NCBI RefSeq assembly: GCF_006345805.1
Contig: NC_042999.1
Span: forward strand, 131,068,001 to 131,132,000
Direction: 5' to 3'
Length of the DNA stretch: 64,000 bases
DNA from: Octopus sinensis
Taxonomy: Eukaryota
The notes under the pieces are model-generated. The model did no database searches. It saw only the letters and a program-made list of their open reading frames with translations, and was not told the origin of the DNA. Below are positions 420-46,559 of the stretch, in pieces. Within the stretch, counting starts at the first letter, position 1, and each line of letters opens with the position of its first letter. The position numbers were made by a program, and so were the translations under genes.

Positions 420-460
<41 letters not shown>

Positions 461-466
<6 letters not shown>

Positions 467-871
467 AAACAAGTCAAAATAGAAAATGCTAAGATAATTT
501 TATAAAGAACATTTTAGTACCGGTTTCGGTCATTTTGAGACCTTTTCAACTGTAACGATTAAATAATTAAATTTAGAAAAATTAGAAGGAAAGTTTTTTA
601 AAGGAATATTGGTATAGTGTTCAAATATAAGTGGCATTCTGCCTTTCTCTGTCTCCCTTGTTTACACAAACAAGGGAGACAGAGAAAGGCAGAATGCCAC
701 TTATATTTGAACACTATACCAATATTCCTTTAAAAAAACTTTCCTTCTAATTTTTCTAAATTTAATTATTTAATCGTTACAGTTGAAAAGGTCTCAAAAT
801 GACCGAAACCGGTACTAAAATGTTCTTTATAAAATTATCTTAGCATTTTCTATTTTGACTTGTTTTTTCAT
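461..871. mobile_element. Near-perfect palindromic (fold-back) element in a (TA)n tract; ~203-bp arms, 4-nt spacer
   Basis: 461-663 is the reverse complement of 668-871 apart from one indel in a T/A run; spacer ACAC at 664-667; flanked by (TA)n. Each arm carries a hammerhead-like motif. Confidence 0.9.
778..820 (+). ncRNA. Minimal type-I hammerhead ribozyme-like motif, U3:A8 core variant (mirror copy on minus strand at ~513-553)
   Basis: ag-TTGAAAA-ggtc(tcaaaat)gacc-GAAA-ccgg-TA-ct: 4-bp helix II, palindromic helix III (ACCGGT), GUA triplet; helix I is weak (2 bp). Confidence 0.55.
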
Positions 872-950
872 ATATATCAACTCGTTATATATATGTATAC
901 ACATATATATATATATAAATACATACATACATACATATATATATACATAT

Positions 951-3084: not shown

Positions 3085-5275
3085 CAGCACTGGCATAGGC
3101 CATGGTTATGGTCTCACTTGGCTTGCCGGGTCTTCTCAAGCACAGCATATCTCTAAAGGTCTCGGTCACTTGTCATTACCTTGGTGAGGCCCAATGTTCA
3201 ATGGTCATGCTTCACTACCTCATCCCAGGTCTTCCTGAATCTGCCTCTTCCACAGGTTCCTTTGACTGCTAGCATGTGACACTTTTTCACACAGCTGTCC
3301 TCATCCATTTGCAACACATGGCCATACCAGCGCAGTCATTTCTCTTGCACACCACATCTGATGCTTCTTAAATCCAACTTTTCTCTCAGGGCACTTACAC
3401 TCTGTCGTGTATGCACACTGACATTACACATCCAGCGGAGCATACTGGCTTCATTCCTTGCAAGCTTATGCATGTCCTCAACAGTCATGGCCCATGTTTC
3501 ACTGCCATGTAGCATAGCTGTTCGCACACATGCTTCATACAGTCTACCTTTTACTCTGAGCGAGAGGCCCTTTGTGACCAGGAGAGGTAGGAGCTCTCTG
3601 AAATTTGCCCAAGCTATCCTTGCTCTAGCAGCTACACTTTCAGAGCATCCACTCCTGCTACTGACTTGGTCACCTAGGTAATGGAATCTATCAACTACTT
3701 GTAGTTTTTCCCCTGGAATGTGACGGAAGCTGTTCTCTGCACATTTTCAGTGTTATTTATTGCTTCCAAGCATCTGCCACATACAAAAACTATCCTCCCA
3801 GTTAGCGTTCCTTTGATATTGCTGCACCTCTTATGTGTCCATAGCTTACACTGGATACATCGTATGGAGTTTCTACCTACATCTTTTCTACAGATCAAGC
3901 AGGGCTATCTACCTGAAGGGATTTGTGCTTTATCTGCCTTCCTACTTATCAAGAATTTGGTTTTTGCTAGGTTGACTCTAAGGCCCTTTGATTCTAGACA
4001 TTGCTTTCGCACCTGAAACTTCTCCTCTAGTTCTGATAGTGACTCAGCAATTAGAGCAAGATCATCGGCATAGAGAAGGTCCCACGGGCATCCTGTCTTG
4101 AATTCCTCTGATATTTCCTGGAGGACTATGATAAGCAAGAGGGGGCTGAGGACTGATCCGTGGTGGAACACTACCCCTTCCCAGAATTCTTCGCTGTACT
4201 TATTGCCAACCCTCACCTTACTGACAGCATCCCTGTACATGGCTTGTACAGCTCTCACAAACCATTCATCTATCCCTAGTTTTCTCATTGACCACCAGAT
4301 AAGGATTGGGAGAACCTGTCAAAGGCTTTCTCCATGTCAACGAAAGCCAGGTTTATCTTTGGCTAGGTATTTCTCCTACAGCTGTCTTACCAGAAATATA
4401 GCACCAGTGGTGCTTTTCCCTGGCACAACCCAAACTGCATCTCATCTAGAATGAATCTCACCCTAATTAGTTGGGCTATGAGCCTCTCCATTACTTTCAT
4501 TACCTGATCCAACAACTTGATACCTCTAATTATTTGTATCTAATGCGTTACCTTTACCTTTGTAGCAGTTAACTATGGTGCTGCTACACCAATCATTGGG
4601 TATGACTCTTTCATGTATCACCTCATTGACTATACAGGTGACTAGACTATAGCTGACACCGCCAGATATTTTAAGCATCTCTGTGTTGATTCCTCATGCG
4701 CCGGGGGCTTTCCTTGTCTTCATACCCTTAATTGCTTTATCTACCAAGGTACTGTCAATTCAGACAGCTGGTCCTTCTGTTGGGTCAACATTCAGCAAAC
4801 TCTCTTTCTCCCATTCATTCTCTTCATTTAGCAACCTTTGAGAGTGGTGTCCCTAAGTCTCTCTCCTTGTAGCCTAGTTAAATGCAAGTGATCCCTCATC
4901 CATGCGGATACATTTCTCTCCTATGGCATCACGATTCTTTCATGCAGCTTTACAACATAAAACACCTCAAGTCTCTGGGCCTCATGATGCAGAACATTGG
5001 CAAATTTTTTCTTATCTGCTTCCCCTCTGGCTAAATAAACCTGTCTCCTGGCATTCCCTTCTGGCTGTCTGATACAATTCCTTGCTGCCACCATTCTTCC
5101 AGTCATCCTATGCCTGTTTCTTCTCCCTAATGGCCCTGTCAACTACATTGTTCCACCACCACATTACCTTTGGTTGAGAGAGGACTTTGCACTATCCACA
5201 GATCTGGTCAGTGGCCCTCAACAGGTTGTCCCATAGAAACCTCCAGTTGTTGTCCACATCATGTGATGCTATATC
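3085..5275 (-). mobile_element. Degenerate RTE-clade LINE (RT and C-terminal region)
   Basis: Frameshifted ORFs with GSVLSPLL, LLYADDLAL, CIQCKLWTHKRC, MLHGSETW, MLRWMC. Confidence 0.9.
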
Positions 5276-5689: not shown

Positions 5690-6092
5690 TATTATATTAT
5701 ATTAAATTAGAGATAAAACCACTATTAGGCAAATCATACAATGAAAAACTTAAGCCAATACATAAGATTATTTAATTTATATTATTTAAATATATAACAA
5801 AATTATTAAAAAAATATAATTACTATAACACTACGATCGTTTCATAGCTGTTAATTTCTTTAAATTTTCAAGTTACAGTCATTCATCAGGTGGTTTAAAT
5901 ATTTAACTTGGCAAGGTTTAATCAATGAAATTAACAGCCATGAAACGAGCGTAGTGTTATATTAATTATATTTTTTCAATAATTTTGTTATATATTTAAA
6001 TAATATAAATTAAATAATCTTATGTATTGGCTAAGTTTTTCATTGTATGATTTGCCTAATAGTGGTTTTATCTCTAATTTAATGTAATATAT
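5690..6092. mobile_element. Fold-back element in a (TA)n tract; ~165-bp inverted arms around a ~70-bp spacer
   Basis: 5695-5858 is the reverse complement of 5927-6090 with a few substitutions; an AT-rich extension lies at 5606-5690. Confidence 0.85.
5826..5896 (-). ncRNA. Minimal type-I hammerhead ribozyme, canonical core
   Basis: Minus strand reads cac-CTGATGA-atgactgt...acagctat-GAAA-cgatcg-TA-gtg: helix I cac/gtg, ~7-bp helix II, palindromic helix III, GUA cleavage triplet. Confidence 0.75.
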
Positions 6093-19711: not shown

Positions 19712-20683
19712 TTAACGAGCAGCCGAAGCTTGTGTGGCTGTTTGCTGTTGTACGTTGCTTGTAGCTTTTTGTTTCAACATTGTCCAGTCAAATGTATAAT
19801 CGTACTGATAATTGAGAGTACGAAAAAGAATGCGGAAAAGCTGCCTGAGGTACATATAATCAGGAGCTTCCTCAAAACGCAATCCACGGCAGTAATTCAA
19901 ATACATAGCGAATTCTGTTGGAAAGCCTTTACACAGGGCTTCGACGGGAGTAGACATTTTCCTCTCGCTTATCTTCTCATACTTCTGTTTTTTGGTCGCC
20001 GCTTTCAGACCTTGCCAAGGAAGGCTACCACGATTGAAATACATCAAAACATAGCCAAGGGATTCCATATCGTCCCTACGACTCTGTTCGATTCCCAAGT
20101 GAGCATTAATGCTAGCATAACGAGCAGTTCCGGTCAAATTTTTATCTTCGCGGTAGACAATATGTTGTCGTGTCTTACTGTCGCGATATTTTTTAGCCAA
20201 ACCAAAATCTATTATGAATAACTTATTACAGTGTCGTCCGATTCCCATCAAGAAATTGTCAGGCTTAATATCTCGGTGAATAAAATTTCTGTTGTGAACA
20301 TATTCCATTCGTGCAATCATCTGGTCCGCAATCAACAATACAGTTTTCATGGTAAATCGTCTCGAACAGAAGTTGAACAAATCTTCAAGGCTCGGTCCTA
20401 ATAAATCCATAACAAGGATATTATAATCTCGCTCTTGATTATACCAACGGACATGGGGAATCCCAACACCTCCTTGTAAGATTTTATAGAGCTTACTTTC
20501 ATAGAGAAGTTGTTGATGTCGAGCTTTAATCGACTCCAATTTAACAGCGACTTCCTCGCCATTTGTTATGTTGATGCCTAGGTAAATATCACCGAACGAC
20601 CCACTGCCAATTTTCCGCACTAATCGATACTTTCCAGTGGCAAAGAAGTCTGTTCGACTAGATCTTTCGCTGCTTACCTCCAT
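19712..20683 (-). CDS. CSNK1A1: Casein kinase 1 alpha (323 aa, single uninterrupted ORF)
   Basis: [51 protein letters not shown] and LPWQGLKA motifs; alpha-type [16 protein letters not shown] and short C-tail after WTMLKQKA. Confidence 0.96.
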
Positions 20684-20756
20684 ACTTATTTTTTCGTGTA
20701 CAATACAATTATTCTTCTAATGAATTGGTAATAAAGTTAGACTACGCCAGCCAAAT

Positions 20757-22933: not shown

Positions 22934-23804
22934 TTAAACCTTTAGCATTTAAATAATAATAATAATGAAATTATTGTATACAGTGCTCAGGTGCACCACA
23001 ACTTGTCAAAAGTGCATATAAAGTACATGCAGTAATGTAAAAATGTCTGGAAAGCGAACAATGTATGAGTCAGATACATGCTTGTGTGTGTATGGAGGGG
23101 AGAAAATCAGGTGTAGTGTTGGTGAATCTCAGAAAGCATGGAAGTTTTGAAGGACGCAGTGCTCCGACAACTAACAACTGATGCTGGCAGTTTGTTCCAT
23201 GCTTCAGCAACTCTCAGCGTGAAAAAATGTTTCCTGAAGTCATGGGAGCTGTGCTGTTTTCTTACTTTGTAAATATGTCCACGGGTGTTAGATAGGTGGA
23301 GTTTGAAAAGGTGCTCAGAGTTGTTGTTTGTACGATGGTTGATAATTTTATGGGTGTCTGCCAAGTCAGCTGCCAGACATCGGAGTTTCAATGTGTCCAT
23401 GCCCAGGGAAGTAAGGCGTTCAGGGGATATGGCAAATGCTTGATGGAGGATATTCTTTTGGTTGCACGTCGCTGAACAGCTTCCAGACGATTGATATCCT
23501 GGGCAAGATAGGGGTTCCAGACCGGTGATGCAAATTCCAGGTGAGGTCTTACCATAGCTATATAAAGCCGCAGATTTAAACTGACCATATCCGGCCTGAA
23601 TATTCTTGTTGCTTTATTATCAAACTGGTCAGAGCCAGCCTCTAACACCTACCCTATAATATCATTCTAAGAAAAAAAAAAGAAAAAAAACACAAAATAC
23701 ATCATTGAAATCTTAAAGCTATGAGATTATGCGTGATTTATTCAAAACAATGTGAATAAATAAGCATTACATTTGTCAGAATAATCCAAATGCTAAAGGG
23801 TTAA
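22934..23804. mobile_element. piggyBac-type MITE interrupted by a CR1-type LINE
   Basis: TTAAACCTTTAGCATTTAAA ... CTGACCATATCC...TGCTAAAGGGTTAA; ATTTAAA is duplicated around the LINE. Confidence 0.75.
22954..23573 (-). mobile_element. CR1/L2-type LINE 3' fragment with (ATT)n tail
   Basis: LYIAMVRPHLEFASPVWNPY...LEAVQRRATK; TRGHIYK...RKHFFTLRVAEAWNKLP. Confidence 0.9.
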
Positions 23805-39415: not shown

Positions 39416-40231
39416 TCATCATCATCATCATCATTTAGCGTCCGTTTTCCATGCTAGCATGGGTTGGACGGTTCTACTGGGGTCTGTGAAGCCAGAAGGC
39501 TTCATCAGGCCCAGTCAAATCTGGCAGTGTTTCTACGGCTGGATGCCCTTCCTAGCGCCAACCACTCCGTGAGTGTAGTGGGTGCTTTTTACGTGCCACC
39601 CGCACTGGTGCCAGACAGAGCTGGCAAACGGCCACGAACGGATGATGCTTTTTATGTGCCACCGGCATGAGGGCCAGGCGAGGCTGGCAACGGACACGAA
39701 ACGGGGCGGTGCTGGCAACGGTCGCGAAACGGAAAGTTCTCTTACATGCCACCGGCACTGGTAACACATCTGCAATTTCCATTGATCGATTTCCATTGAT
39801 CGATTTCGATTCAGATCCTCACTTGCCTCAATGGGTCTTCACAAGCAGAGTTTCGACATGCCACCGGCACTGGTAGCACATCCGCAATTTCCATTGATCG
39901 ATTTCGATTCTGATCCTCACTTACCTCAACACGTCTTCACAAGTAGAGTTTTGTGTCCCAAGAAGGGAAGGTATGTATACGTAGGCTGGCTCCATCCCAT
40001 GTAGAAGGCCACGGGTTGTGGACTCACTTGTCCTGCCGGGTCTTCTCGCGCACAGCACACTTCCAGAGGTCTCGGTCTCTAGTCATTTCCTCAGTGAGAC
40101 CTAAAGTTCGAAGGTCGTGCTTCACCACCTCGTCCCAGGTTTTCCTGGGTCTGCCTCTTCCACAGGTTCCCTCAACCGCTAGGGTGTGGCACTTTTTCAC
40201 ACAACTATCTTCATCCATTCTCGCCACATGA

Positions 40232-46026: not shown

Positions 46027-46559
46027 TATTTGGAACAAAGTCACAAATTTTGGTGGATAGGTTGTAGTTGATTTAAATTACTTCAGAAAATGATTAGTAC
46101 TTATTTTATTAACTCTAGAATAATTAAAAGCAATATTGGCATCAGTGGGATTTGAACTCAGAATGTAAAAGACAAAATTTAATTAAAAGGCAAATCCATA
46201 ATTATAATTACAGAGATGTACTTGCATAGAAAGTGACCTGACCTGAGATCATGTGCTTGAACAAAAACAATTGCAGTGTGGAAGGTGTTTATAAGCCATT
46301 TAAGAAACACACAAAAACCATTAGATTCACTTCAACATTTAAATTTAATTTTTCAAAATATTTTTGCCACTTTGAGACCACGACATGTTCACTAACAAAA
46401 TTCAGTGCTGCATCTCTTGTTCATAATTATAATATTATAGTGATAATGTCACAATTCTATAATTACAATATAAATATTAAATATAATATTTCCAAAAGGA
46501 AGAACTGCATGCACACAAGCTTCAACCCACAGCCTCCCACCTCATAGCTACGTGTCACA

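What the first reader, a model, noticed from the sequence alone, without database searches (positions are those of the whole stretch)
46345..46400. Hammerhead relic with the third compensatory core, G3:C8
Seen on the minus strand: tttgtta-GTGAACA-t-gtcgt(ggtctcaa)agtggc-AAAA-atat-TT-tgaaaaa. Helix I is tttgtta/tgaaaaa, helix III is palindromic (AAAATATTTT), and the GAAA-to-AAAA and helix II wobbles fit CpG decay. GUGAACA swaps C3:G8 for G3:C8. With 783-789 (U3:A8) and 5826-5896 (C3:G8), three Watson-Crick versions of the tertiary pair occur in unrelated elements within 64 kb. Such covariation is expected of ribozymes under selection and suggests an unusually diverse hammerhead repertoire that canonical searches would miss.
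Basis: partly seen in the sequence, partly recalled or inferred. Interest (0 to 1): 0.7.

Follow-up and report, generated by a model that had tools for sequence, protein, structure and literature searches.

The report
Swapped-core hammerhead in Penelope-like retroelement
This is a worn-out copy of the end of a jumping gene whose thousands of sister copies carry a small hammerhead RNA motif with two paired core letters swapped (G3:C8); the intact form likely still cuts itself slowly, but cutting is untested and this copy is predicted to be dead.

Summary
The motif is there as described. It lies in a 210-base repeat (46207-46416, minus strand). 2,011 genomic matches leave positions 3 and 8 free, and 89 of the first 100 listed read G3:C8. 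The family majority restores GAAA, a 5-bp helix II, a 7-bp helix I and a 6-base palindromic helix III. The repeat is the 3' pseudo-LTR of a protein-coding Penelope-like element: 20 of 30 loci of its GIY-YIG gene carry the motif 0.9-1.3 kb downstream. A related family (protein 50% identical) has U3:A8. Metagenome relatives have C3:G8, U3:A8 and, in one copy, A3:U8. So the pair covaries between element lineages. Inserted copies decay neutrally, with no covariation within the family, and this copy has lost G12. Natural U3:A8 and the partly active lab double mutant C3G/G8C are published. I found no natural G3:C8 in the papers I could read, but the most relevant one (Lunse 2017) was not held. This scan noted G3:C8 before, in other genomes (Penelope-like elements, phages). 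Verdict: new variant of a known kind; cleavage untested.

The parts
46207..46416 (-). Solo pseudo-LTR fragment (3' end) of a Penelope-like element, family A; 90% identical to a near-majority copy
46393..46399 (-). Helix I, 5' strand (2.7-2.1); C2.2 changed to T in this copy
46386..46392 (-). Core G3 U4 G5 A6 A7 C8 A9 (G3 = 46392, C8 = 46387), same as the family majority
46385..46385 (-). Extra nucleotide between A9 and G10.1 (G in the majority, T here)
   Evidence: feature described in PMC4209133
46366..46384 (-). Helix II (5 bp in the majority, G10.1:C11.1) with 9-nt loop; three stem changes here, two at CpG
46362..46365 (-). G12-A13-A14-A15.1 box; G12 changed to A at a CpG, so the general base is lost
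   Evidence: role of G12 from PMC8495972 passage
46357..46362 (-). Palindrome AATATT (15.1-16.1); would form helix III only between two molecules
   Evidence: inferred from PMC4209133
46355..46356 (-). U17 and predicted cleavage site (between 46356 and 46355)
   Evidence: hammerhead numbering applied; inferred
46349..46355 (-). Helix I, 3' strand (1.1-1.7); C1.4 changed to A here
46207..46265 (-). About 60-nt 'tail' between the two preferred 3' ends of the family (element positions 146-153 and 206-212)
   Evidence: interpretation from PMC11167929
780..817 (+). Family B hammerhead, U3:A8, palindrome ACCGGT, A17; inverted twin at 549(-); a different Penelope-like family
5829..5892 (-). Family C hammerhead, C3:G8, palindrome ACGATCGT; link to a Penelope-like ORF not established

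Best explanation
The site is a decayed copy of the 3' pseudo-LTR of a Penelope-like retrotransposon whose intact copies carry a minimal type I hammerhead motif with G3:C8 in place of C3:G8, and that intact motif likely self-cleaves slowly as a dimer, while this copy is predicted to be dead. SHOWN: the repeat, its majority structure, its place 0.9-1.3 kb after an RT plus GIY-YIG reading frame, neutral decay of inserted copies, and Watson-Crick 3:8 pairs of different kinds in related elements. INFERRED: the element is transcribed from a promoter in the pseudo-LTR. Helices I and II fold within one molecule, and the AAUAUU palindromes of two molecules pair to make helix III. G3:C8 holds residue 8 so that its 2'-OH can still act with G12, and the cut falls after U17. 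U at 17 avoids the G3:C17 pair that would trap the core. Reverse transcription starts at two sites about 90 and 150 bases past the cut site and mostly uses uncut RNA, running to a fixed 5' end about 24 bases before G3. That yields thousands of 150- or 210-base solo copies, often with an inverted partial twin. Selection acts only on the propagating master copies.
For: 20 of 30 best loci of a GIY-YIG query carry a same-strand family-A motif downstream (19 G3:C8, 1 G3:G8); open frames reach 793 and 1,042 codons. One locus (L318) has this window copy's loop type. The protein's nearest Atlas clusters carry RVT_1, HTH_animal and GIY-YIG (score 0.95-0.96). Intact real copies fold with helices I and II as the minimum-energy structure (-14.5 and -15.4 kcal/mol); the window copy does not. 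Between two subfamilies loop II differs at 5 of 9 positions and core plus stems at 0 of 42. Family E (protein 49-50% identical; motif about 590 bases after its ORF in L278) has U3:A8 with double changes also at 10.3:11.3, 2.2:1.2 and 2.3:1.3. 4 of 35 metagenome relatives gave a descriptor hit after the ORF, 3 C3:G8 and 1 U3:A8, with 0 hits in the reversed control. 3' ends are bimodal and 5' ends cluster at element positions 1-10 (39 of 61 aligned pieces). C3G/G8C partly restores cleavage in a lizard Penelope-like hammerhead, and uncut RNA was the main template there (PMC11167929, passages).
Against: No cleavage data. Only 2 of 61 aligned pieces begin near the predicted cut, which fits slow cutting or none. 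The extra nucleotide is G, where the published consensus is H (1 of 56 examples has G). The predicted fold adds a G3-U17 wobble on helix I, and the predicted dimer did not use the palindrome. Core conservation between subfamilies (0 of 42) is not clearly better than the flanks (6 of 101). Pfam found nothing on the two long ORF pieces, and the family-A endonuclease fragment scored under the GIY-YIG cut-off (19.5 against 22.6 bits). No element with both direct pseudo-LTRs was seen in 4 upstream stretches. A and E group with only 73% support, and their DNA similarity past the motif is weak (25 of 1,000 shuffles reach it).
Confidence: 0.68

Rival explanations
1. The master element keeps a hammerhead-shaped fold that no longer cuts usefully. 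The stems are kept for another job (binding the element's protein, promoter or splice signals), and G3:C8 was fixed by drift or by an overlapping signal.
For: Copies nearly all come from uncut RNA (2 of 61 start near the cut). Hammerhead cutting was not needed for insertion in vitro in a lizard element, and Naiad elements spread without canonical hammerheads (PMC8557442 passages). The extra G and the predicted G3-U17 wobble could suppress activity. A2.1-G3 lies in a TCAG word that resembles an initiator or splice acceptor (motif recalled, not tested).
Against: The 3:8 pair is a catalytic-core contact, yet it is Watson-Crick in all 6 lineages read without bias at 3 and 8 (A, E and four descriptor hits; 12 of 720 permutations; kin are not independent). 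All other core letters are kept.
Confidence: 0.25
2. The inserted copies themselves are host-selected ribozymes, and the 3:8 diversity reflects selection on genomic loci.
For: Thousands of copies keep a perfect core (1,459 identical 32-mers in one subfamily).
Against: Non-CpG core sites change at 2.45% and non-core sites at 2.43%; G12 is lost at the CpG rate (9 of 37, against 21% for all CpG sites). 11 of 100 listed copies have a single 3:8 mismatch, and 1 of 3 double changes is compensatory.
Confidence: 0.04
3. Chance look-alike in AT-rich DNA.
For: No Rfam hammerhead match. A relaxed descriptor does give chance hits (5 in the reversed control) and one repeated look-alike with G3:G8.
Against: The strict descriptor gave 9 hits in 1.46 Mb against 0 reversed and 0 in five shuffles. 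The motif sits where Penelope-like hammerheads are described, and relatives have canonical cores at the same place.
Confidence: 0.02

Closest known systems
Minimal type I hammerheads (min-HHR) of metazoan Penelope-like elements (Cervera and de la Pena 2014, PMC4209133; main text parts 1-2 of 4 and supplement file 2 parts 1-2 of 3 read)
   Same: Place in the pseudo-LTR after the ORF, mostly solo or inverted copies, extra nucleotide between 9 and 10.1, G10.1:C11.1, palindromic 15-16 segment, U-rich 5' and AU-rich 3' flank, U17 common, several families per genome.
   Different: G3:C8: 0 of their 56 aligned examples have it (53 C3:G8, 2 U3:A8, 1 U3-G8; my count). The extra nucleotide is G. Helix I is 7 bp or more.
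Natural U3:A8 core variants (Perreault 2011, PMC3088659, passages; Schistosoma Cercyon elements, PMC4209133)
   Same: Compensated 3:8 pair in nature; families B, E and F here are of this kind.
   Different: Purine at 3 and pyrimidine at 8.
Laboratory C3G/G8C double mutants (Frangieh 2024, PMC11167929, passages; review PMC8495972, passage; Kalweit 2013, PMC3884650, passage)
   Same: Same pair; single mutants are dead and the double mutant is partly active, also in a Penelope-like hammerhead.
   Different: Engineered there, fixed in a natural multi-thousand-copy family here.
Neptune/Nematis clades of Penelope-like elements (described in Craig 2021, PMC8557442, passages)
   Same: [quoted passage not shown]
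   Different: Tail about 60 bases rather than 30-40; the clade was not placed against reference elements.

Membership tests
min-HHR of Penelope-like elements | Literal core C3 U G A N G8 A | tested here: not met
   G3 and C8 in 89 of 100 listed copies; hence filed as a variant, not a plain member
min-HHR of Penelope-like elements | Watson-Crick pair between 3 and 8, with U4 G5 A6 A9 kept | tested here: met
   Majority G3:C8; paired in related lineages. The 3-D pair itself is inferred.
min-HHR of Penelope-like elements | G12 A13 A14 A15.1 (family majority) | tested here: met
   G12 in 28 of 37 and 32 of 35 copies; A13 and A14 in 37 of 37
min-HHR of Penelope-like elements | G12 in the window copy | tested here: not met
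   A at 46365: this copy is a relic
min-HHR of Penelope-like elements | Helices I and II, G10.1:C11.1, extra nucleotide after A9 | tested here: met
   the extra base is G, outside the published H consensus
min-HHR of Penelope-like elements | Palindromic 15-16 segment and NUH cleavage triplet | tested here: met
   AATATT, then U17 in 38 of 38
min-HHR of Penelope-like elements | Located in the pseudo-LTR of an element | tested here: met
   20 of 30 ORF loci
min-HHR of Penelope-like elements | Self-cleavage as a dimer | not testable with these tools
   needs a bench assay
Rfam hammerhead families | Covariance-model match | tested here: not met
   None at E <= 10 on an intact copy or this copy; none among the 150 of 171 window hits shown, so the C3:G8 family C was missed there too
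Penelope-like elements, Neptune/Nematis type | RT with C-terminal GIY-YIG endonuclease in one ORF | tested here: met
   YVDD and YIGETSR motifs in one frame; Atlas clusters; family E fragment passes Pfam GIY-YIG. Pfam was blank on the long family-A pieces.
Penelope-like elements, Neptune/Nematis type | CX2-5CxxC linker before the endonuclease | tested here: met
   C-x3-C-x2-C in L290, L301, L317
Penelope-like elements, Neptune/Nematis type | 5'-truncated copies with inverted partner and optional tail | tested here: met
Penelope-like elements, Neptune/Nematis type | Direct pseudo-LTRs on both sides of the ORF | tested here: inconclusive
   0 of 4 upstream stretches showed one; 2 had an inverted copy
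Penelope-like elements, Neptune/Nematis type | Phylogenetic placement against named reference elements | not tested
   the tree holds only unnamed relatives

The most novel reading that the evidence does not exclude
One clade of Penelope-like elements has used all four Watson-Crick versions of the hammerhead 3:8 pair in nature (C:G, U:A, G:C in this family of roughly 10,000 insertions, and A:U in one metagenome copy). The G3:C8 form is an active ribozyme, unreported in print, and its weaker core tunes how much RNA stays uncut for reverse transcription. Hammerhead counts made with a fixed core would then miss whole high-copy families.
Probability: 0.35. Interest if true: 0.68.

Novelty: new variant of a known kind. 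Interest (0 to 1): 0.5.

Why it matters
The C3:G8 pair came from a crystal structure and was confirmed by swap mutants; nature was known to use U3:A8. A G3:C8 core carried through several amplification waves of a protein-coding element is evolutionary support for the pair, with far more copies than the single motifs this scan noted elsewhere. It gives natural substrates for an open question: whether hammerhead cleavage matters to Penelope-like elements at all. It also shows that fixed-core searches and Rfam skip a family of several thousand copies. A specialist would find it neat rather than startling, because the swap was predicted to work.

Tried and rejected
Rfam: no hammerhead hit. Within-family covariation: absent. 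First 60 family-A loci: no element ORF running into the motif on its own strand, so I first took the family for non-autonomous. The link came from the ORF lying back-to-back with the copy in L038; that locus itself has no downstream motif, but its relatives do. A short ATG frame inside the repeat was considered as the ORF start; no 5' pseudo-LTR was found to test it. Pfam on the long ORF pieces and the PDB sequence search were blank. No relatives in prokaryote genomes. Sequencing runs: no RNA holder listed. Four runs kept as contigs cover the motif and list no variant at positions 3 or 8 at 5% or more, but contigs cannot show ends or expression. The predicted dimer fold paired loops, not the palindrome, so it gives no support for dimer helix III. 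The relaxed descriptor is noisy: 21 real hits (13 paired, 8 mismatched) against 5 reversed and 11 in five shuffles. A repeat with G3:G8 in 14 of 14 copies (window 39842, minus) was rejected as a hammerhead because its hairpin uses the G of GAAA and helix I has 2 pairs. Splicing at the acceptor-like site before the repeat was not tested. Searches for a printed natural G3:C8; none showed one. Lunse 2017, Przybilski and Hammann 2007 and Martick and Scott 2006 were not held. Supplement file 1 of PMC4209133, part 3 of its file 2 and all figure images were not seen and may bear on novelty.

Full report
OBSERVATION. In hammerhead numbering G3 is 46392, C8 46387, position 12 is 46365 and U17 46356. 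The window is AT-rich animal DNA full of microsatellites from a 2.7-Gb genome. The closest named protein relative of the element is an Octopus vulgaris entry at 56% identity; I did not establish the organism. Rfam gives no hammerhead hit for this copy, for an intact copy, or among the 150 of 171 window hits shown.

THE REPEAT. The site lies in a 210-base dispersed repeat, 46207-46416. A 30-base pattern with 3 and 8 free matches 2,011 places against 0 for the control. Of the first 100 listed, 89 are G3:C8 and 11 have one change (my count). Only 3 matches change both positions, and 1 of those is a pair. A looser pattern covering families A and E matches 8,637 places, and one subfamily has 1,459 identical 32-mers. 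Six of 140 blind 10-kb stretches hold an insertion, which extrapolates to roughly 10,000. The majority of 38 aligned pieces in L002-L030 has a 7-bp helix I, core GUGAACA, one extra G, a 5-bp helix II closed by G10.1:C11.1, GAAA, the palindrome AAUAUU and U17. Intact real copies fold into helices I and II as their lowest-energy structure, with a G3-U17 wobble added; the window copy folds otherwise. This copy differs from the majority at 7 positions of the motif, 3 of them at CpG, including G12A.

DECAY. Non-CpG core positions differ in 9 of 368 cells, non-CpG positions outside the motif in 112 of 4,618, CpG positions in 148 of 694 and G12 in 9 of 37. These loci were the best hits to the window copy, which may raise the G12A count; in L031-L060 G12 is kept in 32 of 35. 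Inserted copies are therefore not under visible selection.

HOST ELEMENT. The first 60 loci showed no element ORF leading into the motif on its own strand. One copy sat back-to-back with a broken RT and GIY-YIG frame (L038). Searching the genome with that endonuclease piece gave 150 scored matches from 3,137 candidates. Of the 30 best loci, 20 have a same-strand family-A motif 0.9-1.3 kb after the ORF: 19 G3:C8 and 1 G3:G8. The other 10, including the query locus, showed none by my pattern. Open frames reach 793 and 1,042 codons and hold YVDD, a C-x3-C-x2-C linker and YIGETSR. The Atlas places the protein with RVT_1, HTH_animal and GIY-YIG clusters; Pfam was blank on the long pieces. By the description in Craig 2021 (PMC8557442, passages) this is the Neptune/Nematis layout. 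Four upstream stretches showed no direct 5' pseudo-LTR; two had an inverted one. Of 61 aligned pieces, 3' ends fall at element positions 146-153 (22) or 206-212 (33), next to AT-rich or TA sequence, and 39 begin at positions 1-10. This matches the two internal RT start sites and tail shown for a lizard element (Frangieh 2024, PMC11167929, passages). In long copies the bases before the repeat look like a branch point, pyrimidines and CAG (motif recalled). In other copies 22 of 32 start with AG, preceded by G in 11 and by the template's C in 4. A transcription start with a cap-derived G or a splice joint would both fit; neither is tested. Only 2 of 61 pieces begin near the predicted cut, so the templates were mostly uncut.

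COVARIATION. In 140 blind stretches plus the window (1,463,600 bases) a strict descriptor with 3 and 8 free gave 9 hits against 0 reversed and 0 in five shuffles. Seven were paired; the 2 mismatched ones belong to a family whose majority is C3:G8 (9 of 14 copies). A relaxed version gave 21 hits, 13 paired, against 5 reversed and 11 in five shuffles. Families read out were C3:G8 (C, D and two seen only in flanks), U3:A8 (B, E, F) and G3:C8 (A). Family B follows a GIY-YIG frame by about 1 kb in 7 of 25 loci; its endonuclease is only 26% identical to A's. Family E has the same extra G, a shorter palindrome and U17, with U3:A8 and double changes at three stem pairs. Its protein is 49-50% identical to A's and its motif follows the ORF in L278. 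A and E group with 73% support, and DNA similarity past the motif is weak (25 of 1,000 shuffles). Among 35 metagenome contigs with related proteins, the descriptor hit 4 just after the ORF: three C3:G8 and one U3:A8, 0 in the reversed control; many contigs end too early. Reading 17 of the 35 by eye and with a looser scan added decayed C3:G8 motifs (L324, L333 and its near twin L336), a U3:A8-like one (L323), an unclear one (L348) and one A3:U8 motif with 3-bp helix I and 4-bp helix II (L341, a single copy). All-paired by permutation is 12 of 720 for the six unbiased lineages and 48 of 40,320 with L333 and L341 added; relatives are not independent, so these are not true probabilities. The tree does not fix the direction of change. 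Between two family-A subfamilies loop II differs at 5 of 9 sites, core and stems at 0 of 42, flanks at 6 of 101.

MECHANISM. Most likely the intact motif works as other minimal hammerheads do: two molecules pair through the palindrome, G12 and the 2'-OH of residue 8 catalyse a slow cut after U17, and the 3:8 pair only positions residue 8, so its orientation can swap. Single C3G or G8C changes kill a Penelope-like hammerhead and the double change partly restores it; a review states the same for the standard ribozyme (PMC8495972, passage). Kalweit 2013 (PMC3884650, passage, data not shown there) found G3-C8 more active when position 17 is not C, which fits U17 here. Against: the extra base is G (from memory, G at this place hurt a viroid hammerhead; not checked), the G3-U17 wobble may compete, the computed dimer did not use the palindrome, and copies come from uncut RNA. 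I put about 0.93 on the identification as a pseudo-LTR hammerhead motif and about 0.7 on measurable cleavage by the intact form.

WHAT IS KNOWN. Cervera and de la Pena 2014 (PMC4209133; main text parts 1-2 of 4, supplement file 2 parts 1-2 of 3) describe every feature except G3:C8 and report about 1,300 U3:A8 hits in Schistosoma; 0 of their 56 aligned motifs have G3:C8. Perreault 2011 (PMC3088659, passages) reported natural U3:A8. I also saw passages of PMC6765202, PMC6155905, PMC13282606 and PMC11014351 and part 1 of 5 of bioRxiv 10.64898/2026.07.22.740005; none mentions a natural G3:C8 in what I saw. Seven searches found none. Lunse 2017 on variant hammerheads of these elements, Przybilski and Hammann 2007 and Martick and Scott 2006 were not held, so absence from print is not established. 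Earlier notes of this scan report G3:C8 motifs in four Penelope-like loci and in phages of other genomes (unchecked by me); none exist for this genome.

VERDICT. Observation confirmed; interpretation partly supported. A new variant of a known kind, unusually well backed by copy number and by paired changes in relatives, with activity untested. Interest 0.5.

Noticed in passing
L341:1700-1745 (+), metagenome contig: Hammerhead-shaped motif with A3:U8, the fourth Watson-Crick version, 386 bases after a related Penelope-like ORF match; single copy, odd-centred palindrome.
   Followed up: partly
L211:5940-6000; L254-L283: Family E: abundant U3:A8 hammerhead of a related Penelope-like element (2,908 first-look candidates).
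   Followed up: yes
L213:6532 and 6414 (-); L180:4525 (-): Two different U3:A8 type I hammerheads 118 bases apart in one repeat, retrozyme-like, and a related motif elsewhere.
   Followed up: no
L175:5293 (-) and 13 other copies in the blind sample: Family D, a very abundant C3:G8 minimal hammerhead; 1 of 14 copies reads U3:A8, possibly a subfamily.
   Followed up: partly
window 39790-39855 (-): High-copy repeat with a hammerhead look-alike, G3:G8 in 14 of 14 copies; its hairpin takes the G of GAAA, so probably not a ribozyme.
   Followed up: partly
window 434-899 and 5753-6032: Head-to-head inverted pairs of families B and C, 96% and 83% identical arms; the perfect hairpins give spurious microRNA hits in Rfam.
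   Followed up: partly
window 19715-20716 (-): Uninterrupted 334-codon frame resembling a casein kinase I gene without introns (name from recall), possibly a retrocopy.
   Followed up: no
L307:2835-3085: A-to-G differences at four places are much commoner in runs X7 and X9 than in X2 and X18; could be RNA editing of inverted copies, but the run type is only a guess.
   Followed up: no
L290, L307 just before the repeat's 5' end: Branch-point-like and acceptor-like sequence ends exactly where most short copies begin, and half of the copies starting with AG carry a G where the template has C.
   Followed up: partly
L031, L033, L034, L050, L052, L057, L059, L208: One inverted family-A pair with shared flanks recurs at many loci, so it has been carried inside a larger repeat; such copies inflate the pattern counts somewhat.
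   Followed up: no
window 3339-4318 (-), 23110-23613 (-): Fragments of other, LINE-like reverse-transcriptase frames (type from recall).
   Followed up: no
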